Part shown: one piece after another, positions 8,669 to 31,213 of the stretch
Layout: every line of letters starts with the position of its first letter
Position numbering within the stretch: position 1 is the stretch's first letter
Assembly: GCA_016699205.1 (NCBI GenBank)
Contig: CP064964.1
Coordinates: forward strand, 90,001 to 122,000
DNA length: 32,000 nucleotides
Reading direction: 5' to 3'
Source: Candidatus Saccharimonadota bacterium
Lineage (GTDB): Bacteria; Patescibacteriota; Patescibacteriia; 2-12-FULL-60-25
Notes under the pieces: generated by a model
The model's input: only the letters and a program-made list of their open reading frames with translations
What the model was told of the DNA's origin: nothing
Databases searched by the model: none
Translations under genes and position numbers: made by a program

Positions 8669-9094
8669 ATGCAAAAGAATCATGATGCGGATCGATATTG
8701 GCTCGTGACTTTTGGTTACTGTTTCTCAGCTGCATTCATTTTTAATCTTGTTTTAGCTGTTATCTTTTCTCAATCGGGTTCATTTGATTTTGGAGGTGAC
8801 TTATTATTAATTTTTGTTGGCATCCCTTTATTTATTGCAATTGCTACTGTGATGATTGATGAGGCGAGATCAAAGGTCCGACCTGCGAACGTGTCTAAAA
8901 AAAGACATTGGGTCAAAATACTTATTTTCATTCTCCTCTCACAGGTCATTTCGTATGTGCCCTACACACTTCTTCGCAATACTTTAGAATGGTACTCATA
9001 CGATAGCCGGTCTCCTGAGGGGAACGCGAAGCGCTTGAACGCACAAGAGAATCGTAACCCTTATATACAAGGTGGATCTGTGTACATCAAATAA
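8669..9094 (+). CDS. hypothetical small membrane protein (about 3 TM segments)
   Basis: I placed the start at ATG 8669 (TGcTATTCT lies 9 nt upstream); the longer ORF from 8519 would overlap pth. Hydrophobic stretches include YWLVTFGYCFSAAFIFNLVLAVIF, LLLIFVGIPLFIAIATVMI and WVKILIFILLSQVISYV. Confidence 0.55.
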   Translation: MQKNHDADRYWLVTFGYCFSAAFIFNLVLAVIFSQSGSFDFGGDLLLIFVGIPLFIAIATVMIDEARSKVRPANVSKKRHWVKILIFILLSQVISYVPYTLLRNTLEWYSYDSRSPEGNAKRLNAQENRNPYIQGGSVYIK

Positions 9095-9123
9095 CAAAAT
9101 TCCCGCCAAAGCGGGAATTTTGT
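9094..9123. terminator. bidirectional rho-independent terminator
   Basis: A 13-bp perfect stem ACAAAATTCCCGC / GCGGGAATTTTGT with loop CAAA. It lies between the convergent membrane-protein gene and the repaired end of der. Confidence 0.75.
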
Positions 9124-9125
9124 GC

Positions 9126-10609
9126 TTAGTAGCGGCGACCACCGTGCTTCTGACGGCGCATGGTCTGGTTGACGAGCTTTTTTCTTTGTGGCGGACTTTT
9201 CCGACGACGGCTTCCATACCTGGACCGTTTACGTTGCGTTTCTTTTCCGTCTTGGCCATCGGCAAGTGGCGGACTTTGACGCGGATCGGGGTACCGGTGA
9301 AGGAGAATTTATCGCGTAAGCGCTTTTGGAAGAACTTGAGCCAGTTATTGTGCAAGTTGTCCTTGTCACCGTGTACCGTGACCAGGAAGGTCGGCGGTGC
9401 GTGGCCAGTTTGGGCGACGTCGTAAATACGAGGGGATTTTGGACCGTAGCTGGCAAGCGGCTTCATCTTTTGAATACACCACTTGAGTACGCGGTTTACG
9501 GCGTTATAGTCGATGTGACGCATGCGTTCCTCTTGAACCTTTACAGCCATCTCGATGAGTTTTCCGGCGCGCAAATCTTCCTTAGCACTCACAAAGACCA
9601 TCGGAGCCCAGGAAAGGAATGGGAAAAGCTGACGAATCAGCATTTCATATTCATTGGTAGAACCCGTGTCTTTGTTCTGAACTAAATCCCATTTGTTAGC
9701 GACCAGAATCAAACCTTTGCTCGATTCCTCCAACATGCCAGCCAAGTGGCGATCCTAAGCAGAAGGATCGACGGTTGCATCAAAGACGAGCAAGGCAACA
9801 TCGGCGGCTTCAACAGCTTGGCGATTACGTTCGATCGCTGCTTCTTCAATTCCTTTTTCTACGCGCGAACGCTTGCGCATACCAGCGGTATCAACAATCA
9901 CGACTTCCTGTCCGTTGTATTTCAAATGCGTGTCCTGAGGTTCACGCGTGGTGTGGGGGATCGGGGATACGATGGAGCGCTCCTCGCCAACGATGGCGTT
10001 TACGAGAGAGGACTTTCCGACGTTCGGGCGGCCGACAAGCGTGATGCGGAGCGGGCGGGCTTCCGGAATAACCTGCGGCGGCTTACCGATGCGGTTGAGT
10101 TCGATAAACAATTCGTCGAGCAAATCTCCAGAGCCGAGAGAAGTAGCTGCGCTGACGATGTGTGGGACGCCAAATCCGAGGGCTTGCCACTCTTTAGCCA
10201 TGCCGTCGTTGAATTCACGAAGCGTATCGACCTTGTTGGCCACGAGCCAGACATTCTTGTGAAGCTTGCGTACGTGGCGAGCGAGATCGAGATCCTGCGG
10301 CATGATTCCGGTACGAGCATCGACCACAAAGAGAACGACGTCTGCTTCTTTGATGGCTTTCTCGGCTTGTTTGCGGATACCTTCGCCGATCACATCTTTC
10401 TCCGTATCCATTCCACCGGTGTCGACCATTTCAAAAGAAGCTCCGTTCCAAATAACGGGAGCGTAGTTGCGGTCGCGGGTTGTGTGCGGACTGGCGCTGA
10501 CGATGGCACGGCCGGACTCAGTCAAGCGATTCCACAACGTGGATTTACCGACATTCGTACGTCCTACCAAGGCTACACGCGGCAAGTCACGGCCGAGTTT
10601 GTGTCGCAT
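9126..10609 (-). pseudogene. der: ribosome-associated GTPase Der (EngA), disrupted as assembled (in-frame TAG at 9755-9757; frameshift at T6 run 9178-9183)
   Basis: There are two tandem GTPase domains (GRTNVGKST...DTGG...NKVD and GRPNVGKSS...DTAG...NKWD) plus a KH-like domain, split into ORFs 9755..10609 and 8996..9745 in the same frame. The assembled C-terminus reads through the terminator. Adding one base to the run gives ...GKVRHKEKKLVNQTMRRQKHGGRRY and TAA at 9126-9128, just ahead of the hairpin. Confidence 0.9.
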
Positions 10610-12074: not shown

Positions 12075-12178
12075 GTCGTGTAGAAAGCAAAATCGTTTTT
12101 GAGATTAACACAATTTATGACAGAGAGCAAAGAGCATGGAGCATCCAGCCTCTGGGGGTAAATACACTTCACCCGGGC

Positions 12179-12209
12179 ATGTTCTGTGCTTAATGTTCTA
12201 TGTTATACT
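12179..12209 (+). promoter_or_regulatory. direct-repeat promoter module of the T4SS-like operon
   Basis: ATGTTCTGTGC-tta-ATGTTCTATGT-TATACT, with the ATG at 12221 11 nt downstream. The TGt before TATACT forms an extended -10. It is 25 of 31 identical to the minus-strand module at 29078-29108. Confidence 0.5.
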
Positions 12210-12220
12210 GTTAGCGATTT

Positions 12221-15133
12221 ATGTCTTTGCGTTCATTGGCCGCTTGGAAAAAGCCTCTTGTTGTTAGTTTGCTGTTTTTTCTGATCGGTACAAATCTCTT
12301 AACGATGTTTGCGCCCACCGCGCATGCGCAAGACGGGGGTCGAGCCGCAGATGCCGCTGCTGCATTAATCGGTTCTGAAGCAAGACCAAGTGACAGTGCA
12401 GCGATTCGGATGGCGAGCGAGGCTGCTGCTTCTTCATCGGCTGTAAGTACGAGCGATGCTTGTACCGGCAGCGGTGTATTTGGTCCATTTTTAGGGTTTA
12501 TCTGTAGCGGCATGACACTGGTTCTTGGGCTTATTGTTGAACTACTTGGCAAGCTTGTTACATTGATTTTGTCCATTCTTCTCGCCTTCGCAAAATACAA
12601 TGCATTCGCGAGCGCGGCTCCGGTACAAGTTGGTTGGCCGATCGTGAGAGACATCTGCAACATGTTTTTCATCATCGTCCTTTTGGTTTCCGCTTTTGCG
12701 ACGATCATCGATCAAGCACAGAGTGATTTGCATTACACCAAGGTATTACCAAGGCTTCTGGCGATGGCTGTGTTGATCAACTTTTCAAAAACGCTCATCC
12801 AGCTGCTGATTGATTTTTCGCAGGTCGTGATGCTCACGTTTGTAAATGCGTTTGCCGCTTCGGCGAGCGGTAACTTTGTTAATGCTCTCGGATTGACGAC
12901 GATCATGCAGCTCGACACATCAGTTCCAGCAGGCACGGCAAACATGGCAAATATCATCATCTCGTACATGCTGGCGATTTTCATGCTTGGCATCATGATC
13001 TCGGTTGTCAGTCTTCTGACGAGATTCCTTATTTTCCGTATTGTCGGCCTTTGGATCGCACTTATTTTTTCACCTCTTGCTTTCTTTGTTACGGCGGTTC
13101 CAGGACGTTTGGCAAAGGGTCTCGGCAGTATTGCGAGCGATTATTGGGGTCGATTGGGCAGCTTGTTGAGCGGAGGACCGATTATTGCTTTCTTTTTGTG
13201 GCTTACGCTCGCCATTGTTCAGCAGGCGAACTCTGGAGCAGCAGGACAAGGACTTTCTCAGGTTTTGGACTTTGAAGTTGAGGGACCCGTGCAAGTTTTT
13301 TTGACTTCTATCGGTAATGCGCAGTCGATCGCGTCGTTCGTTGTCGGTATCACCTTGTTGATGATGGGCTTGGATCAGGCCGTGAAAACATCCGGACAAA
13401 TCAGCAGTACGTTGGGCGCTTTTGCTAGTAAGGCGAAGAGCGCAGGTACGTCGCTGGGTCGATTGGGTGCGTTGGCGCCGTTTTTGGCGGCTGGGTATGG
13501 AGCTCGTGCAGGAGCGCGAGCTGTTGATCAACGCTTTGATGTCACGAGACGTGCTTCAGCGCTTGGTCTTAAGACCGTTGGACGTGTTCCAGGTGTCGGG
13601 TCCGCTGTACGTCCGACGTTGGCGCGCGGTCTTACGATGCGAAGAGAAGAAGCTGCTGCTCAGGCTGCTCAGGAAGCCAAATTGGTTGGAAATGTTGCCA
13701 AGTTTGGTACTGATCAAGAACAGAAGATGGTCGGAAAGACTTACAGTATGAGCGGAAGCGCGTTCCGTACTCTTGGAGCTAGATCCGGCTCGATGAAAGT
13801 CGCCGAGATTTTGGCCACCGACAAGATTCGCGATCGCGAGATCAAGAAAAATGAAGAGAGCTATGTTGACCGCTTGAAGGCCTCCGGTATGTCGGAAGCT
13901 GAGGCGAAGAATGGCAGCAAGGTTTTGGCTGAGAAGGATGCTTATCGCGAACAGATGGGCTTTATTCAAAATCAGATCGAGTTGGCACGCGGACTTGGCG
14001 ACTTGGACAAGGTCGAAGATCTTGAGAAGGCGATTCGTATCAATCCATACATGGCTTCCGATAAAGACCGCCAGTCGCAGATTGATAAGCTCGCTACCGA
14101 TCCAGAGAAGTACAAGGATATTAATAAACAGGATGCGATGAGTGGAGATCTCTTAACTGGATTCATGCAGAAGCATGGATGGGAAACCAATGCAGCAGGG
14201 GAGCTCGCCATCAAAGACACGGCTGCTTATGACCGTTTGAAGGAATCTGTTCAGAAGTCTGGCAATAAGTCGCTTCTTGAAGGCTTGGAGGCACATGAGA
14301 CGTTTGTTGTTAATTCACCAGGGCTTAAAACATCAGAAGCCACACAGTTACAGCATCGCAAGAATTCAGCAGATGGCATGATTCAATCATTCAGTGTAGC
14401 CAGAGAAAATGGAGAGTGGCAGAAGGATTCGTCTGGTAATTTGAAAGCTGGAACACGTGTTCAAACAAAAAACTATACAAAGTCCCTTGCAGATCTTGAA
14501 TCAGCAACAGCAGCCCGTAAAAGCTCAGGTGATACTGTGCCTCGTGATGTTATACCGCAAAACAATATTGCAAATGCAAAGCTTGCCGATTCATTTATCT
14601 CAAACAATGGCACGCTGACGGACTATCTAGCTAAAGCAAAGAGTAGCGATGTCGATACTCTGCCTATTCAGACTATCCAGTATCAAGTTTTCAATGGAGC
14701 GGAATCTGGTATCGCTGCGCTGAATACCGGTGACTCAATCAAGGCAAATGAGACATTGAAACCCGTTAGTAGAATTCTCGCGCAGATTGATCAACAAGGT
14801 ATTTCAGACACGATGCAATCGGATATTATCGAGTCGTTCTCGACTGGCCTTAGGGACGTTTCAGGAAAGATCAATACTTCATTTGTAAGAAATATCGATA
14901 AACTGACACCACAGATTCGAGATTCCTTGGTGAAAACATTAGAAACCGCTAAGAAACGTGCGGACGACATACTTCAGAATGTCGCTAAAGATAAGATGAC
15001 GGAAGCACAGAAGGAAGTTGTTGCATTTTCAGATGCTGTTTCTAAGGAAATTGATATCAATCGCAAGAACATCAACTCACGCATTCTCAATGCCTATCGC
15101 CCAGGTCGCGATCGAGCTAGCGGAAATACATAA
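12221..15133 (+). CDS. VirB6/TrbL-like polytopic membrane protein with signal peptide and a ~550-aa hydrophilic C-terminal extension
   Basis: 970 aa. The signal peptide reads MSLRSLAAWKKPLVVSLLFFLIGTNLLTMFAPTAHA-QD. About 7-8 hydrophobic helices fall between residues ~80 and 390, in a TrbL/VirB6-like arrangement, followed by a long charged tail. It is the first gene of a cluster that contains VirB4 and PrgI-like genes. Confidence 0.7.
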   Translation: MSLRSLAAWKKPLVVSLLFFLIGTNLLTMFAPTAHAQDGGRAADAAAALIGSEARPSDSAAIRMASEAAASSSAVSTSDACTGSGVFGPFLGFICSGMTLVLGLIVELLGKLVTLILSILLAFAKYNAFASAAPVQVGWPIVRDICNMFFIIVLLVSAFATIIDQAQSDLHYTKVLPRLLAMAVLINFSKTLIQLLIDFSQVVMLTFVNAFAASASGNFVNALGLTTIMQLDTSVPAGTANMANIIISYMLAIFMLGIMISVVSLLTRFLIFRIVGLWIALIFSPLAFFVTAVPGRLAKGLGSIASDYWGRLGSLLSGGPIIAFFLWLTLAIVQQANSGAAGQGLSQVLDFEVEGPVQVFLTSIGNAQSIASFVVGITLLMMGLDQAVKTSGQISSTLGAFASKAKSAGTSLGRLGALAPFLAAGYGARAGARAVDQRFDVTRRASALGLKTVGRVPGVGSAVRPTLARGLTMRREEAAAQAAQEAKLVGNVAKFGTDQEQKMVGKTYSMSGSAFRTLGARSGSMKVAEILATDKIRDREIKKNEESYVDRLKASGMSEAEAKNGSKVLAEKDAYREQMGFIQNQIELARGLGDLDKVEDLEKAIRINPYMASDKDRQSQIDKLATDPEKYKDINKQDAMSGDLLTGFMQKHGWETNAAGELAIKDTAAYDRLKESVQKSGNKSLLEGLEAHETFVVNSPGLKTSEATQLQHRKNSADGMIQSFSVARENGEWQKDSSGNLKAGTRVQTKNYTKSLADLESATAARKSSGDTVPRDVIPQNNIANAKLADSFISNNGTLTDYLAKAKSSDVDTLPIQTIQYQVFNGAESGIAALNTGDSIKANETLKPVSRILAQIDQQGISDTMQSDIIESFSTGLRDVSGKINTSFVRNIDKLTPQIRDSLVKTLETAKKRADDILQNVAKDKMTEAQKEVVAFSDAVSKEIDINRKNINSRILNAYRPGRDRASGNT

Positions 15134-16807: not shown

Positions 16808-16812
16808 CATTG

Positions 16813-16821
16813 TGCTATAAT
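16813..16821 (+). promoter_or_regulatory. extended -10 promoter internal to the T4SS-like cluster
   Basis: TGcTATAAT, with ATG 16830 8 nt downstream. There is no Shine-Dalgarno sequence. Confidence 0.55.
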
Positions 16822-23869: not shown

Positions 23870-23958
23870 TGGCGGAGAGGGTGAGATTCGAACTCACGGT
23901 ACCTTTTGGGTACGGCAGATTTCAAGTCTGCTGCTTTAGACCACTCAGCCACCTCTCC
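23870..23958 (-). tRNA. tRNA-Ser (anticodon UGA), CCA encoded
   Basis: The reverse complement folds as acceptor GGAGAGG, anticodon arm GCAGA-CTTGAAA-TCTGC, a long variable arm GTACC-caaaa-GGTAC, T arm GTGAG-TTCGAAT-CTCAC, then CCTCTCC-G-CCA. Length is 89 nt. Confidence 0.95.
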
Positions 23959-24832: not shown

Positions 24833-24921
24833 GGAGAGGTACCCAAGAGGCTGAAGGGGGGAGATTGCTAATCTCCTAGGGTCGAAAGGCCGCGAGGGTT
24901 CGAATCCCTCCCTCTCCGCCA
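24833..24921 (+). tRNA. tRNA-Ser (anticodon GCU), CCA encoded
   Basis: Acceptor GGAGAGG, anticodon arm GGAGA-TTGCTAA-TCTCC, a long variable arm, T arm GAGGG-TTCGAAT-CCCTC, then CCTCTCC-G-CCA. Length is 89 nt. Confidence 0.95.
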
Positions 24922-24922
24922 T

Positions 24923-24951
24923 AAAACCGCGTCTCAAACAGACGCGGTTTT
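24923..24951 (+). terminator. rho-independent terminator after tRNA-Ser(GCU)
   Basis: A 12-bp stem AAAACCGCGTCT / AGACGCGGTTTT with loop CAAAC. Confidence 0.8.
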
Positions 24952-24984
24952 ATGAAAATATGCTCATTGGACTAATATTCACTT

Positions 24985-27691: not shown

Positions 27692-27913
27692 ATGAGCAAA
27701 ACTCCAAAATATAATCTTTCCAAACTTGCGGCCAAGATCAAGGGTCTTCGCGCCAAGCATGAATTGACTCGTGACGAGCTTTCCAAGAAAGCCAAGGTCA
27801 ACTACAACACGATCATCAAGCTTGAGAGCGGCGCCAACAAGAACCCGACAATCAAGACCTTGATCGGAATCGCCATGGTGTTCAAGACTTCGGTCGAGGA
27901 TATCATCGCCTAA
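27692..27913 (+). CDS. XRE-family helix-turn-helix transcriptional regulator
   Basis: 73 aa with the pattern LRAKHELTRDELSKKAKVNYNTIIKLESGANKNPTIKTLIGIAMVFKTSVEDI. Confidence 0.85.
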   Translation: MSKTPKYNLSKLAAKIKGLRAKHELTRDELSKKAKVNYNTIIKLESGANKNPTIKTLIGIAMVFKTSVEDIIA

Positions 27914-28472: not shown

Positions 28473-28549
28473 TGGTGCGGCCGAAACGATTCGAACGTTT
28501 GACCTCTTCCTTCGCAGGGAAGCGCTCTATCCAGCTGAGCTACGGCCGC
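28473..28549 (-). tRNA. tRNA-Arg (anticodon GCG), CCA encoded
   Basis: The reverse complement is GCGGCCG-TA-GCTC-AGCTGGATA-GAGC-G-CTTCC-CTGCGAA-GGAAG-AGGTC-AAACG-TTCGAAT-CGTTT-CGGCCGC-A-CCA. Length is 77 nt. Confidence 0.93.
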
Positions 28550-28558
28550 CAACAACCA

Positions 28559-29068
28559 TTAAATCTTTAATAGCCGCCCGATTATATCAGAAAGATGCTC
28601 TCCTTGCAAGTCCAGATCCTCTTGAAGGTACTGGCGCAAATGGCTGCGTAGTTCCACGGGGTCTTGGTCGATCAGCTCCAAGCGCATGCGCTGGGCCAAG
28701 GTTGCTTTTGGCTCAATATAGAGGACTTTGGCCATTGGAGGCTGATACACGATGCCAAAGTTGCCGATATCCTGAAACAGGTGAAGTTTACCGTCTACAA
28801 CGATGCCATTGTCGCCGATTTGAACGAGGATATGGCGAGGCTCTTGGCTGCCGACCAACAATATAATGATGGCGGAGAGAAAGATGATAAAAGCGAACAA
28901 GAAATTAGCCGTCCAAACAGCATAAGCGATTAGCAAAACCGACAGAACGGCTAGCCCGAAATACCAGGTTTTTCCGCGCTCATGCTTATCAAAAGCCGGC
29001 ATTTCCCAGACAAAGCGGTCTTGGGATGAAATCATGGCGTCCTCGACTTCCGAGGGAAAAGATCGCAT
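28559..29068 (-). CDS. hypothetical 2-TM membrane protein
   Basis: I placed the start at ATG 29068 (9 nt after TGcTACAAT); alternatives are ATG 29035 and the longest ORF from 29119. It has a hydrophobic hairpin WYFGLAVLSVLLIAYAVWTANFLFAFIIFLSAIIILLV followed by a ~100-aa soluble domain. No family was recognised. Confidence 0.65.
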   Translation of the reverse strand: MRSFPSEVEDAMISSQDRFVWEMPAFDKHERGKTWYFGLAVLSVLLIAYAVWTANFLFAFIIFLSAIIILLVGSQEPRHILVQIGDNGIVVDGKLHLFQDIGNFGIVYQPPMAKVLYIEPKATLAQRMRLELIDQDPVELRSHLRQYLQEDLDLQGEHLSDIIGRLLKI

Positions 29069-29077
29069 ATATCGGCC

Positions 29078-29108
29078 ATTGTAGCATAGAACATCAGGCA
29101 TAGAACAT
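29078..29108 (-). promoter_or_regulatory. direct-repeat promoter module (second copy of the T4SS operon module)
   Basis: The minus strand reads ATGTTCTATGC-ctg-ATGTTCTATGC-TACAAT, with ATG 29068 9 nt downstream. It is 25 of 31 identical to 12179-12209 and has the same 11+3+11+6 layout. Confidence 0.5.
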
Positions 29109-29117
29109 TTATCGCAC

Positions 29118-31213
29118 ATGCTCTATGCTCTATGCCATATGCTGCGCTGGGAGGAACCCGTCTCATTCGTTAAAGGAGCGACAGCCCCGGTGCGTAAAGC
29201 CTGGGAGAGCTTAGGTATCCGGACGATCGGGGATCTCTTGCTGACACTTCCACGCCGATACGATGACTTCTCCCAAATCGCTAAGATTGCTAATGCGCAG
29301 AATGGCGATTTCGTGACGCTCGAGGGAACCGTTGTTAAATGCATCAAGCTCAATACCTTTCGTAAGCGTTTTGCCGTTTTCAGACTGATGTTTGAGGACG
29401 AGACCGGAAAGTTGAATGCGAACTTTTTTAATCAGCCTTGGGTTTTGGAAGAATTCAAACCAGGTCGAAAAATCTTTTTGTCTGGAAAGATTCAAATTAA
29501 AGCACCTTACGGAAAAACACTCGTAAGCAAGATTTGGGAACCAGCAGAAGCCCGAACATTAGCTGCAGGAAAGGTCGCGCCGGTTTATGGTTTGGCTGGA
29601 ACATTGATACAGAAAACGTATCGACGTTTGATGCAGTATGTTTTAGAGAATGTCGAGTGGCCGGAAGACGCTGTTGATAAGGCTGAACTTGATCGATTAA
29701 AACTTTTGTCACTGCAAGAGGCTGTTCGAGCTGTCCATGAACCAAATTCTAGTGAGCATGCCGAGCAGGGACGGCGCCGATTGGCTTTTGATGAAGTTCT
29801 TGGCTATCAACTTGCGCTTGGCGCTGAAAGAAAGCGCGCGACAAAAGCAGGTGCGCCCGCGATTACCTTTGATCAAATTTTTGCCAAGAAATTTGTGGAG
29901 GGTTTGCCGTATCCATTGACCGGAGACCAGAAGAAATCGGTGTGGGCGGCTTTGCAGGATATGGAGCGCGATCAGCCGATGCGTCGGCTCATCCAAGGCG
30001 ATGTTGGTTCAGGAAAAACGGTTGTCGCGGCTTTTTGGCTGCGCATGTGCATCGACAGGGACATTCAGCTGTCTTGCTCGCACCAACAGATATTTTGGCG
30101 AGACAGCACGCGCTTACATTCCAGCGCCTGTTTGCAACGCATAATATTCCATTTGCGTTGGTGACGAGAACGGAAAAGAGACTCTATCAAGGCAGAAATG
30201 AGGAACCGATGAAGGTAGGGCAGATTGAATCGCTGGCGGAGCAGGGGAATATCGTGATGGTCGGCACACATGCCTTGCTTGAGAATGGGCGTTTGCCTAA
30301 GGATTTGGCTCTGGCGATTGTGGATGAACAGCATCGATTTGGCGTAGGGCAGCGTGAAGCGTTATTACTCGGTTCGCGAGATGACGGGCATGTTCCGCAT
30401 CTCTTATCGATGACAGCGACGCCGATTCCTCGGACATTGGCGCTGACTCTGTACGGGGATTTGGATATTTCACTCATCGTCGAAAAGCCAGCCGGACGTT
30501 TGCCGATTACGACGAAAGTTTGTCATGGAGAGCAACGCGAGAAGGCGTATCAGGCGATTCGTGATGCGATCGGACGTAAAGAGAAAGCGTATATTGTTTG
30601 TCCGCTGATTGATCCTTCGGATGCGCTTGGAGTTACATCGGTGACGGAGGCGTTGAAGAACTTATCGAAGGGACCGCTTGAAGGGATCAAGCTTGGTTTG
30701 CTGCATGGTCGATTGAAACCAAAAGAAAAAGAAGAAACGATGGAGGCGTTTAAAAATGGCGATGTCGATGTTTTGATCGCGACAAGCGTGATTGAAGTCG
30801 GCGTGGACGTTCCGCAGGCGACAGTGATCGCTATTGAAGGCGCTGAGCGATTTGGATTGGCACAGCTTCATCAATTACGCGGACGTGTCGGAAGATCAAG
30901 CCTGCCGAGCTCCTGTTACTTGCTGACGGATACCGAAGGGCCTGGATTGGAGCGCTTGATGACGATGGAACGCGTACAGGATGGCTTCCGATTAGCAGAA
31001 GAGGATTTGAAGCTGCGTGGAAGCGGACAATTGCTCGGAACGCAGCAGAGCGGCCATGAGGCGCTTACCATCGCCAGAATTACGGATGGTGAAATTATTT
31101 CCCAAGCGAGAGATGAAGCTCGGAAAATTCTTGATACGGATCCAGATTTATCAAAACATCCGCTTTGGAAACGTGCCGTCGAGGGGATGCGGGACTCGGC
31201 TCACTTGGAATAG
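29118..31213 (+). CDS. recG: ATP-dependent DNA helicase RecG; frameshift at T5 run 30032-30036 as assembled
   Basis: ORF 29118..30164 ends in Walker A (GDVGSGKTVVAAF). ORF 29942..31213 continues in another frame with LAAHVHRQGHSAVLLAPTDILARQH, DEQHRFGV, SMTATPIPRT and QLHQLRGRVGR. One extra T joins them as GKTVVAAFLAAHV. The likely start is ATG 29139 (MLRWEEPVSFVKG) or 29118. Confidence 0.9.

What the first reader, a model, noticed from the sequence alone, without database searches (positions are those of the whole stretch)
12179..12209. A 31-nt direct-repeat promoter module is shared by the T4SS-like operon and a distant membrane-protein gene
Upstream of the operon the sequence is ATGTTCTGTGC-tta-ATGTTCTATGT-TATACT, then 11 nt, then ATG 12221. 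On the minus strand at 29108-29078 it is ATGTTCTATGC-ctg-ATGTTCTATGC-TACAAT, then 9 nt, then ATG 29068. The layout is identical: two 11-nt direct repeats with a 14-nt period abutting the -10 hexamer, where the repeat's terminal TGy supplies an extended -10. Hand counting gives 25 of 31 identical positions. The region where a -35 would sit (GTTCTA) does not resemble TTGACA. This suggests either an activator or repressor binding tandem sites, or an alternative sigma factor. I found no other copy in the window.
Basis: seen in the sequence. Interest (0 to 1): 0.7.

Follow-up and report, generated by a model that had tools for sequence, protein, structure and literature searches.

The report
Heptad-repeat arms over two leaderless promoters
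Two promoters in a tiny uncultured bacterium (Candidatus Uhrbacteria) share a real repeat element built from the 7-base unit ATGYTCT laid over conserved 'extended -10' promoters; it evolves more slowly than neutral DNA where present but is missing in sister species, so it is probably an optional regulator-binding site, not a core promoter part.

Summary
In detail: 12179-12209(+) and 29108-29078(-) share 25/31 bases in the same layout, and chance gives no such pair. Each site is the promoter-proximal arm of an imperfect palindrome built from ATGYTCT heptads, with an inverted arm upstream (12118-12144; 29118-29135), in a divergent intergenic region (LCP<->970-aa operon; recG<->169-aa gene). The arm ends in TRTG-n-TAYAMT, a Gram-positive-type extended -10, 9-11 nt before an ATG with no Shine-Dalgarno. 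That -10 and its spacing are invariant in every Uhrbacteria orthologue. The repeats are not: site 2 has none in four congeners and one heptad fewer in a fifth, and site 1 has none in two. Where present, they change far less than four-fold sites: a 37-nt block at site 2 has 0 changes against 21-42% neutral divergence, and site 1 units differ at 4/22 against about 50%. My best reading (about 0.4) is an accessory operator of heptad sites for an unidentified DNA-binding protein, SinR-like in logic. Rivals are cis-only promoter material, a neutral heptamer repeat, an RNA hairpin and an alternative sigma factor. No whole-genome census was possible. Interest is moderate.

The parts
12118..12144 (+). 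Site 1 left (distal) arm: TGACAGAGAGCAAAGAGCATGGAGCAT. On the minus strand it reads as heptads ATGCTCC/ATGCTCT/TTGCTCT pointing at the LCP gene, and TTGCTC falls where a -35 for the LCP promoter would sit.
   Evidence: It matches the site 2 left arm at 19/27. It differs from L127 in 4 of 28 alignment columns, against 14 of 35 in the loop.
12145..12178 (+). Site 1 loop (34 nt). It evolves at about the neutral rate except for a conserved 13-mer, TGGGGGTAAATAC, at 12153-12165.
12179..12203 (+). Site 1 right arm: unit 1 ATGTTCTGTGC (12179-12189), spacer TTA (12190-12192), unit 2 ATGTTCTATGT (12193-12203). In heptad register it reads ATGTTCT/GTGCTTA/ATGTTCT/ATGT.
   Evidence: It is retained in L127, L129 and L130, with units differing at 4 of 22 positions from L129/L130 where LCP four-fold sites differ by about 50-52%. 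It is absent in L128 and L160.
12199..12209 (+). Extended -10 promoter of the 970-aa/PrgI/VirB4-like operon: TATG-T-TATACT.
   Evidence: Invariant hexamer and TG in window, L121, L122, L127, L128, L129, L130 and L160.
12210..12223 (+). 11-nt discriminator/very short leader with no Shine-Dalgarno, then start codon ATG 12221 of the 970-aa polytopic membrane protein.
12102..12112 (-). Probable extended -10 of the divergent LCP (LytR-CpsA-Psr) gene: TGTG-T-TAATCT on the minus strand, 27 nt before ATG 12074.
   Evidence: TGYTAAYCT-like box is conserved in the five aligned lineages (window, L127, L128, L129, L130).
29118..29135 (-). Site 2 left (distal) arm: GCATAGAGCATAGAGCAT. On the plus strand it is 2.5 perfect heptads, ATGCTCT ATGCTCT ATGC, running into the recG start.
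   Evidence: It is 17/18 identical in L148 despite about 62% four-fold divergence. Apart from its first base (G to C in L155-157), it is unchanged in L151-153 and L155-157.
29109..29117 (-). Site 2 loop: GTGCGATAA (9 nt), invariant in the three lineages that carry the full module.
29084..29108 (-). Site 2 right arm: unit 1 ATGTTCTATGC (29108-29098), spacer CTG (29097-29095), unit 2 ATGTTCTATGC (29094-29084).
   Evidence: Unit 1 is invariant. The spacer and unit 2 positions 1 and 6 vary among L151, L153 and L155. L148 has one heptad fewer, and L129, L147, L150 and L149 have no repeats.
29078..29088 (-). Extended -10 promoter of the 169-aa membrane-protein gene: TATG-C-TACAAT.
   Evidence: ATGC-TACAAT, or TGTGT-TATAAT in L149, is conserved in all orthologues, 6-9 nt before the ATG.
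29066..29077 (-). 9-nt discriminator with no Shine-Dalgarno, then start codon ATG 29068-29066 of the 169-aa protein (two TM helices). A tRNA gene follows the ORF at 28476-28549.
29124..29141 (+). Inferred recG expression signals made from the heptad array: -10-like TATGCT (29124-29129), 9 nt, then the true recG start ATG 29139 (MLRWEEPVSF).
   Evidence: The recG start is placed by comparison with orthologues, MLHWEEPVSF in L129. The geometry of a heptad array is shown. The promoter assignment is inference only.
27692..27913 (+). 73-aa XRE/PbsX-family HTH protein, about 1.1 kb from site 2. It is the only DNA-binding protein candidate in the window and a weak candidate.
   Evidence: Pfam HTH_3 in syntenic orthologues. 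It gives only generic XRE-family hits in PDB and NCBIfam. No link to the repeats was shown.

Best explanation
The shared 31-mer is the promoter-proximal arm of a composite cis element. At each of two divergent intergenic regions, two opposed short arrays of the heptad ATGYTCT (core GTTCTRT / its complement) flank a loop of 9 or 34 nt. The arm nearest the target gene runs into a TRTG-type extended -10 that drives a near-leaderless mRNA. RNA polymerase needs only the extended -10, which is the part conserved everywhere (shown by comparison). The heptad arms cover the positions where a -35 and spacer would be (about -13 to -37), and at site 2 also the core promoter of recG. I infer that they are operator sites for a sequence-specific DNA-binding protein that binds heptads in direct and inverted orientation, as SinR or the omega repressor do. 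That would couple, most likely repress, the T4SS-like operon and the 169-aa gene, and probably their divergent partners LCP and recG. The element is accessory: it has been gained, resized in 7- or 14-nt steps, or lost among congeneric species. The binding protein is not identified.
For: The pair is non-random: 2 hits against 0 expected and 25/31 identity against a background maximum of 18-19/31. The left arms are also shared, 19/27, and the left-arm type GCAWRGAGCATRGAGCAT recurs at site 1, site 2 and L148 site 2. There is constraint where the element is present. At site 2, CATAGAGCATAGAGCAT+GTGCGATAA+ATGTTCTATGC (37 nt) has 0 changes in three lineages whose four-fold sites differ by 21-42%. 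The 3-nt spacer, unit 2 positions 1 and 6 and both discriminators do change, so this is not a recombination tract. At site 1 the units differ at 4/22 from L129/L130, against 17-20/35 in the loop and about 50-52% at LCP four-fold sites. The arms lie upstream of the predicted transcription starts of both genes of each pair, so they are DNA-level elements. The repeats are specific: other extended -10 or leaderless promoters in the window (PrgI, AhpC, glyoxalase) lack them, and canonical TTGACA-type promoters exist (DprA, HTH73), so TGTTCT is not the general -35. There is precedent: SinR binds the heptad GTTCTYT in multiple copies and orientations at promoters (PMC3163267).
Against: No regulator was identified, and the nearby 73-aa HTH is a generic XRE protein. 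Only two loci were seen in the window (32 kb) and the overlapping or flanking loci fetched from relatives, so a regulon is not shown, and neither large scan gave a census. The arm-to-arm distance differs (9, 34 and 35 nt). Unit 1 lies 7 nt closer to the -10 in L148, and L130 has an extra heptad, which is awkward for a rigid operator. The module is absent at orthologous promoters of congeners that keep the genes and the -10. L127 changed 5/22 unit positions at site 1, roughly the neutral rate. Similar heptad arrays occur in many unrelated genomes as plain simple-sequence repeats. Part of the site 2 constraint could be due to the overlapping recG core promoter.
Confidence: 0.4

Rival explanations
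1. Cis-only promoter material. Heptad arrays are raw material from which promoters are built, with no dedicated regulator. Any (ATGYTCT)n array contains TRTG, a -10-like TATGYT and, exactly 9 nt later, an ATG. Constraint reflects two tightly packed divergent core promoters that share the same 70-146 nt.
For: The geometry is verified. The recG signals in the window follow it exactly: TATGCT 29124-29129, 9 nt, ATG 29139. The L109 array runs straight into an ORF start, the L118 array ends in TATGT-TATTTT, and the L112 array abuts TTGACT-N17-TATAAG. The site 2 conserved block coincides with the inferred recG -35-to-start region. The module is replaceable by unrelated sequence in congeners while the -10 persists.
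Against: RNA polymerase contacts do not normally fix every base of a 37-nt block including a 9-nt 'loop'. At site 1 the units lie in the -35-to-(-10) spacer of the operon promoter, where sequence is usually free, yet they are conserved at about 18% difference against about 50% neutral. This reading does not explain why two unrelated loci keep the same 11+3+11 arrangement and the same C/T asymmetry between arms.
Confidence: 0.25
2. Neutral or selfish simple-sequence repeat. The sites are short, decaying heptanucleotide microsatellites (STRR-like) that arose by slippage in permissive intergenic DNA. Their similarity reflects only a shared heptad family.
For: The genome-wide scan for the tandem pattern returned almost only (ATGTTCT/ATGCTCT)n arrays in Herpetosiphon, Bacteroidota, several Patescibacteria and others. 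TRF sees period 7 at 29118-29143. Relatives differ by 7- or 14-nt indels. Presence is patchy among congeners. A known class of intergenic heptamer repeats near start codons has no proven function (PMC4679880).
Against: The sites change significantly more slowly than four-fold sites in carriers. No copy-number variation was seen among same-species strains (window, L121, L122, L143, L154). The arrays are very short, at most 2.5 perfect copies, so slippage should be rare. Only two loci were found in the sampled DNA, both at promoters of divergent gene pairs.
Confidence: 0.17
3. RNA hairpin. The palindrome is transcribed from an upstream promoter and folds as a 5'-UTR structure that controls the downstream gene.
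For: The sense strands fold well: site 1 plus strand -34.1 kcal/mol, z = -3.7, against z = -0.7 for the antisense strand; site 2 minus strand z = -3.2; L148 z = -4.7/-5.9. The consistent C/T difference between arms gives G-U pairs only on the sense strand of the downstream gene. A consensus structure exists in four site 1 orthologues.
Against: The hairpin ends at or inside the conserved -10, so a transcript from that promoter does not contain it. There is no room for an upstream promoter in the 41-nt intergenic region of congeners. The covariation term is small (-1.75) with only four sequences. The T-to-C change in L151 and L153 breaks a pair without compensation. There is no Rfam match. The G-U asymmetry reduces to one repeated heptad position, so it is about 2 independent events.
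Confidence: 0.08
4. Alternative sigma factor. TGTTCT (unit 1) is a non-canonical -35 read together with the -10.
For: TGTYCT sits 18 nt upstream of the hexamer at both sites and in L127, L129 and L130. No TTGACA-like -35 is present.
Against: In L148 the unit is 11 nt from the hexamer. In L129, L147, L150, L149, L128 and L160 it is absent while the -10, spacing and gene persist. TG-extended -10 promoters do not need a -35 (own knowledge). The -10 boxes are ordinary sigma-70-type hexamers.
Confidence: 0.05

Closest known systems
SinR operators of Bacillus subtilis (7-bp consensus GTTCTYT; XRE-family tetrameric repressor)
   Same: The unit is a heptad with a nearly identical core (GTTCTRT here). 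Copies occur in multiple numbers, in both tandem and inverted orientation, overlapping promoters, and looping between separated sites is proposed (PMC3163267). An XRE-family HTH gene lies 1.1 kb from site 2.
   Different: Position 6 is a purine here and a pyrimidine in SinR sites. The local HTH protein is 73 aa, has no SinR-type multimerisation domain and no specific similarity to SinR. The phylum is different, and binding was not tested. This is an analogy of logic, not membership.
Omega repressor heptad arrays of inc18 plasmids (RHH protein binding contiguous 7-bp WATCACW heptads in direct or inverted orientation at promoters; own knowledge)
   Same: Arrays of 7-bp sites in mixed orientation lie over promoter regions, and affinity is set by copy number and orientation.
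   Different: The sequence is unrelated, no ribbon-helix-helix gene was identified in the window, the element is chromosomal, and there are only 2-4 heptads per arm, every second one degenerate.
Intergenic heptamer direct repeats (TAACTGA repeats of Beggiatoaceae, Cyanobacteria and Bacteroidetes, PMC4679880; cyanobacterial STRR, own knowledge)
   Same: [quoted passage not shown] ATGTTCY arrays of this kind are common in Herpetosiphon and several Patescibacteria.
   Different: Those repeats are proposed to act in the 5' UTR, post-transcriptionally. Here the repeats lie upstream of the -10, so they are not in the mRNA. They are paired as inverted arms and show purifying selection.
Extended -10 ('-16 region', TRTGnTATAAT) promoters and leaderless mRNAs of Gram-positive-type bacteria (own knowledge)
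   Same: TRTG-n-TAnnnT is present, no -35 is needed, and 6-11 nt separate the hexamer from an ATG with no Shine-Dalgarno. The same form is seen at PrgI, AhpC and the glyoxalase gene in this window.
   Different: Nothing differs for the core promoter. The heptad arms are an addition that ordinary promoters of this type lack.

Membership tests
Extended -10 (TG / TRTG) sigma-70-type promoter | TG one base upstream of a TAnnnT hexamer (TRTGnTAnnnT) | tested here: met
   TATG-T-TATACT (12199-12209) and TATG-C-TACAAT (29088-29078).
Extended -10 (TG / TRTG) sigma-70-type promoter | Conservation of the box and of its position in orthologues | tested here: met
   Hexamer, TG and distance to ATG are invariant in 7 lineages for site 1 and 8 for site 2.
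Extended -10 (TG / TRTG) sigma-70-type promoter | Transcription starts 6-8 nt downstream of the hexamer | not testable with these tools
   This needs 5' RACE, dRNA-seq or metatranscriptome 5' ends.
Leaderless / near-leaderless mRNA | Start codon within a few nt of the predicted start site and no Shine-Dalgarno | tested here: met
   There are 11 nt and 9 nt between hexamer and ATG (6 nt in L148), and no GGAG-like sequence. The start site itself is inferred.
SinR-type heptad operator | Heptad matching GTTCTYT | tested here: not met
   The core here is GTTCTAT / GTTCTGT, with a purine at position 6. The consensus is taken from PMC3163267.
SinR-type heptad operator | Several heptads in direct and inverted orientation over a promoter | tested here: met
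SinR-type heptad operator | Cognate SinR-like (HTH plus multimerisation domain) protein | tested here: not met
   The only HTH protein in the window is 73 aa. Its best PDB hit is a PbsX-family regulator (E 4.6e-5), with no SinR hit, and NCBIfam gives only sub-threshold generic XRE hits.
Simple-sequence repeat / contingency locus | Run of perfect tandem units long enough to slip | tested here: not met
   At most 2.5 perfect heptads (29118-29135). TRF score is 38, with 84% matches.
Simple-sequence repeat / contingency locus | Copy-number differences between strains | tested here: not met
   Copy number is identical in window, L121, L122, L143 and L154. Steps of 7 or 14 nt are seen only between species.
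Miniature mobile palindromic element (MITE/REP-like) | Many dispersed copies with conserved internal sequence and terminal inverted repeats | tested here: inconclusive
   Inverted arms are present, but the loops are unrelated (9 nt against 34 nt). Only two loci were found in the sampled DNA, and no target-site duplication was seen. The whole genome was not available.
Structured RNA family (Rfam) | Match to a curated covariance model | tested here: not met
   No match at site 1. At site 2 there is only a spurious miRNA-hairpin hit, far below threshold.
   There are two loci only in the window plus relatives' loci. The motif is present at orthologous site 1 in 3 of 5 other lineages (L127, L129, L130; absent in L128, L160), and at site 2 in 2 of 7 others plus one partial (full: L151-153, L155-157; partial: L148; none: L129, L147, L150, L149). 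The whole-genome census failed.

The most novel reading that the evidence does not exclude
ATG-containing heptad arrays (ATGYTCT)n act as self-contained, slippage-generated 'promoter plus start codon' cassettes in Patescibacteria. Every array carries a TRTG motif, a -10-like TATGYT and, exactly 9 nt later, an ATG. Expansion of an array can therefore create or rebuild leaderless expression signals, as appears to have happened for recG in this lineage, and opposed arrays then double as binding sites for a heptad-reading regulator. This would be a repeat-driven route to promoter birth and regulon growth in reduced genomes.
Probability: 0.12. Interest if true: 0.7.

Novelty: new member of a known kind. 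Interest (0 to 1): 0.4.

Why it matters
Almost nothing is known about transcription signals or regulators in Patescibacteria (CPR), which cannot be grown alone; my literature searches found no promoter or transcription-start study for them. This locus gives a concrete, testable cis element: conserved extended -10, near-leaderless promoters overlaid by an optional heptad-repeat element that is under selection. It sits in front of a conjugation/T4SS-like envelope operon whose first gene product is hypervariable, and in front of a widely conserved small membrane protein. If a binding protein exists, it would be one of the first regulator-operator pairs defined in this radiation. If none exists, the case still shows how short heptad repeats supply promoter parts. 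The work is also a caution: a period-14 'direct repeat' can be a disguised period-7 repeat, and searches built on it return generic microsatellites.

Tried and rejected
1. Genome-collection scan with ATGTTCTRTGNNNNATGTTCTRTG. It returned at least 120 loci, but nearly all are plain heptamer arrays, because period 7 also satisfies period 14. My first impression that the window came from Herpetosiphon was wrong.

2. Metagenome scan with a pattern that includes the -10. It gave 16 hits, of which only L143 is relevant. The collection lacks the Uhrbacteria relatives, so it is not a census. The viral scan gave one unrelated sequence seen twice.

3. Close strains L121 and L122 are 99% identical and so uninformative.

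4. Other ideas considered from memory and rejected on spacing or sequence: an alphaproteobacterial-type LexA box (GTTC-N7-GTTC) and the Cheo box; a DnaA box in the site 2 loop (TTATCGCACA has an extra base); a sigma-28 -10 (GCCGATAT at site 2, not conserved in L155); a Pho box near the LCP promoter; OmpR- or LytTR-type direct repeats (wrong period).

5. Cruciform formation as a common mechanism: site 1 is a weak DNA palindrome (z -1.9/-0.4).

6. Rfam gave nothing.

7. RNAalifold covariation: there are too few sequences and the signal is weak.

8. Testing whether ORFs start in register with heptad arrays across all loci was abandoned. The arrays have no stop codons on that strand, so ORF extension would give false positives; gene callers already extended the 169-aa ORF to 180 aa.

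Full report
**1. The observation**

The two sequences are exactly as reported.
- Site 1 (+ strand): ATGTTCTGTGC-tta-ATGTTCTATGT-TATACT at 12179-12209, then 11 nt, then ATG 12221.
- Site 2 (- strand): ATGTTCTATGC-ctg-ATGTTCTATGC-TACAAT at 29108-29078, then 9 nt, then ATG 29068.

A script confirms 25/31 identical positions. Apart from the elements' own inverted arms (19-21/31), the next best ungapped match of either 31-mer in the window is 18-19/31. The 25-nt tandem pattern, allowing three mismatches, occurs only at these two places, with 0.00 expected in shuffles.

The claim that there is no other copy is not correct. A search for the single unit with up to 2 mismatches finds inverted, overlapping copies with a 7-nt period immediately upstream of both sites, at 12127-12144 and 29118-29135. 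Tandem Repeats Finder reports period 7, 3.7 copies, consensus ATGCTCT, at 29118-29143. These left arms also resemble each other, 19/27.

**2. Context**

The window is chromosomal. It carries ParB, RelA/SpoT, TopA, DprA, Pth, Der, an LCP protein, ComFC, an XRE-type HTH, AhpC, the 169-aa protein and RecG. The operon consists of a 970-aa polytopic membrane protein, a 523-aa protein, PrgI, a TraC-like protein and a VirB4-like ATPase.

Exact and near-exact proteins lie on 1.02-1.11-Mb contigs, and a source names the organism Candidatus Uhrbacteria bacterium (Patescibacteria/CPR). Both sites lie in divergent intergenic regions:
- LCP (start 12074, minus strand) <-> 970-aa operon.
- 169-aa gene <-> recG.

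Comparison with orthologues moves the recG start to ATG 29139 (MLRWEEPVSF), so the ATGCTCT heptads are intergenic. The 169-aa protein has two predicted TM helices, and nearly all of its listed homologues are exactly 169 aa.

**3. The promoter part**

The 3' end of the repeat plus the hexamer reads TATG-T-TATACT and TATG-C-TACAAT. That is the TRTGnTATAAT form of extended -10 known from Gram-positive bacteria (own knowledge). There is no canonical -35 and no Shine-Dalgarno sequence.

Other units in the window show the same type of signal 7-11 nt before an ATG: PrgI (TGTGC-TATAAT, 8 nt), AhpC (TATAAT, 7 nt) and the glyoxalase gene (TATAAT, 9 nt). Canonical -35/-10 promoters with leaders also exist at DprA and HTH73.

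In every orthologue I could fetch, the hexamer, the TG and the distance to the ATG are conserved.
- Site 1: window, L121, L122, L127, L128, L129, L130, L160.
- Site 2: window, L143, L154, L151-153, L155-157, L148, L129, L147, L150, L149.

This holds whether or not the repeats are present. The transcription starts themselves remain inferred.

**4. What the repeats are**

Read in a 7-nt register:
- Site 2 is ATGTTCT/ATGCCTG/ATGTTCT/ATGC-TACAAT.
- Site 1 is ATGTTCT/GTGCTTA/ATGTTCT/ATGT-TATACT.

The opposite arms are ATGCTCT/ATGCTCT/ATGCCAT/ATG (recG start) and ATGCTCC/ATGCTCT/TTGCTCT. The '11 + 3' unit is two heptads, the second one degenerate. Relatives differ in whole heptads:
- L148 site 2 has ATGTTCA/ATGCCAT/ATGC-TACAAT, one heptad fewer.
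- L130 site 1 has one heptad more.
- L128 has a 14-nt gap.

Each locus is a long imperfect palindrome.

| Locus | Strand | RNA fold z | DNA fold z |
|---|---|---|---|
| Site 1 | + | -3.7 (-34.1 kcal/mol) | -1.9 |
| Site 1 | - | -0.7 | -0.4 |
| Site 2 | - | -3.2 | -3.0 |
| Site 2 | + | -2.6 | -2.3 |
| L148 | + / - | -4.7 / -5.9 | not run |

There is no Rfam match. Other inverted repeats in the window are ordinary terminator-like hairpins of unrelated sequence.

**5. The large scans and a caveat**

My genome-collection scan returned at least 120 loci dominated by Herpetosiphon. Inspection showed they are plain (ATGTTCT/ATGCTCT)n arrays, which satisfy a period-14 pattern trivially. They show that this heptad is a common simple-sequence repeat in several phyla, not that the module is widespread.

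Eight of those loci are Patescibacteria. There the arrays are intergenic, and in five of the eight (L028, L044, L091, L109, L117) they face an inverted heptad array upstream. Some abut gene starts or promoter boxes. So the window's architecture has relatives of a loose kind.

A metagenome scan with a pattern that includes the -10 gave 16 hits, of which only one (L143) is the same species. That collection lacks the Uhrbacteria relatives. No whole-genome census of the source organism was possible.

**6. Evolution of the repeats**

The relatives are congeneric: TopA 86-97% and VirB4 94-99.5% amino-acid identity.

Site 2:
- The full module is present in the window species (window, L143, L154) and in two further lineages (L151-153 and L155-157).
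- It is partial in L148.
- It is absent in L129, L147, L150 and L149, where the intergenic region is only about 41 nt in the first three.

Site 1:
- The module is present in L127, L129 and L130.
- It is absent in L128 and L160.

The module is therefore dispensable for expression of either gene.

Where it is present, it changes less than neutral sites.
- Four-fold sites of the 169-aa gene and recG differ by 21-42% between the window and L151, L153 and L155.
- The 37-nt block CATAGAGCATAGAGCAT-GTGCGATAA-ATGTTCTATGC is identical in all three lineages. The 3-nt spacer (CTG, CCG, CCA, TTA), unit 2 positions 1 and 6, and both discriminators vary. With a neutral rate of 0.25 per site, 0.75^37 is about 2e-5 (my calculation).
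- At site 1 the two units differ at 4/22 positions from L129 and from L130. The loop differs at 17-20/35, and LCP four-fold sites differ by about 50-52%.
- L127 is an exception, with 5/22 changes.

The conserved block at site 2 is the left arm, the loop and unit 1.

**7. Mechanism**

Shown:
- There are two extended -10, near-leaderless promoters.
- Heptad-based inverted arms lie upstream of them.
- The arms are under constraint in the lineages that carry them.
- The arms have been lost, gained or resized among congeners.

Inferred:
- The arms lie upstream of all four predicted start sites, so they act as DNA.
- They occupy the -13 to -37 region of promoters that need no -35. At site 2 they also cover the inferred recG core promoter (TATGCT 29124-29129, 9 nt, ATG 29139).
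- The most economical function is binding of a protein that reads heptads in either orientation and occludes or bridges the divergent promoters.

SinR of B. subtilis is the closest precedent. [quoted passage not shown] The core here is GTTCTRT. The 73-aa XRE-family protein encoded 1.1 kb from site 2 is the only candidate in the window, but it has only generic XRE similarity. I give this reading about 0.4.

Rivals:
- Cis-only promoter material (0.25). A perfect ATGYTCT array carries TRTG, TATGYT and an ATG 9 nt later.
- Neutral heptamer repeat (0.17).
- RNA hairpin (0.08).
- Alternative sigma factor (0.05).

**8. Comparison with known systems and novelty**

The core promoters are ordinary members of the extended -10 / leaderless class. 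The heptad arms resemble SinR or omega-type heptad operators in logic, and intergenic heptamer repeats (TAACTGA, STRR; PMC4679880) in form. They meet the defining tests of neither:
- The SinR consensus fails at position 6, and there is no SinR-like protein.
- The arms are too short and too stable for a contingency repeat.
- Unlike the TAACTGA repeats, they are not in the mRNA.

I found no literature on Patescibacteria promoters or their regulation. I class the element as a new member of a known kind (a repeat-type cis-regulatory element over a promoter) in a lineage where none has been described.

**9. Verdict**

The feature is real, larger and differently built than described. It is constrained where present but optional across the genus, and its regulator, if any, is unknown. 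Interest is 0.4.

Noticed in passing
window 12221-15133 (970-aa protein) versus neighbours: The first operon protein is hypervariable. It is 86% identical to the L121 strain and 48-82% in congeners, while the adjacent VirB4-like ATPase is 99.8% and 94-99.5% identical. This suggests a diversifying surface or host-contact protein.
   Followed up: partly
window 8996-9745 / 9755-10609 and 29139-30164 / 29942-31213: Der (EngA) and RecG are each split into two overlapping ORFs in the window, but are intact (493 aa; 690-701 aa) in all relatives. These are probably frameshift errors of the assembly, or possibly pseudogenes.
   Followed up: partly
window 12153-12165: A 13-mer, TGGGGGTAAATAC, inside the otherwise fast-evolving site 1 loop is conserved in L127, L129 and L130. 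Its function is unknown.
   Followed up: no
window 16811-16821: An internal extended -10 (TGTGC-TATAAT) lies 8 nt before the PrgI ATG, preceded by a hairpin (GGATTCCTGC...GCAGGAAT). This is probably an internal leaderless promoter within the operon.
   Followed up: no
window 28476-28549 (-), 23873-23958 (-), 24833-24918 (+): There are three tRNA genes. One lies 10 nt downstream of the 169-aa ORF and may be co-transcribed with it from the site 2 promoter.
   Followed up: no
window 24920-24954: A perfect 15-bp inverted repeat (CATAAAACCGCGTCT / AGACGCGGTTTTATG) lies directly after a tRNA gene and 30 nt before the 877-aa peptidoglycan-binding protein gene.
   Followed up: no
L001-L120, Herpetosiphon loci (e.g. 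L005, L014, L042, L049): Intergenic DNA of Herpetosiphon species is packed with many different heptanucleotide tandem arrays (ATGYTCT, CCCCGAT-like, CATCCTT, CACGAAG, TTTGCCT, CTCTGCG), reminiscent of cyanobacterial STRR repeats.
   Followed up: no
L028, L044, L091, L109, L117 (other Patescibacteria): ATGTTCY heptad arrays are paired with an inverted heptad array 12-70 nt upstream: (GGAGCAT)n, (ACATGGA)n or (GAACACG)n. This opposed-array architecture recurs in unrelated CPR genomes.
   Followed up: partly
L148 9905-9995: The recG / 169-aa intergenic region of this relative is a 71-nt near-perfect hairpin (z -4.7/-5.9). Its outer stem ATGCCATATGCT is shared by the recG start and the -10 region of the 169-aa gene.
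   Followed up: partly
L147 13696-17269; L151 17093-18520; L148 13587-20510: Relatives carry integrase/recombinase genes, a primase-like gene and a type I restriction-modification system in the region that corresponds to window ~21-27 kb. This looks like a variable island next to the conserved HTH-AhpC-169aa-recG block.
   Followed up: no
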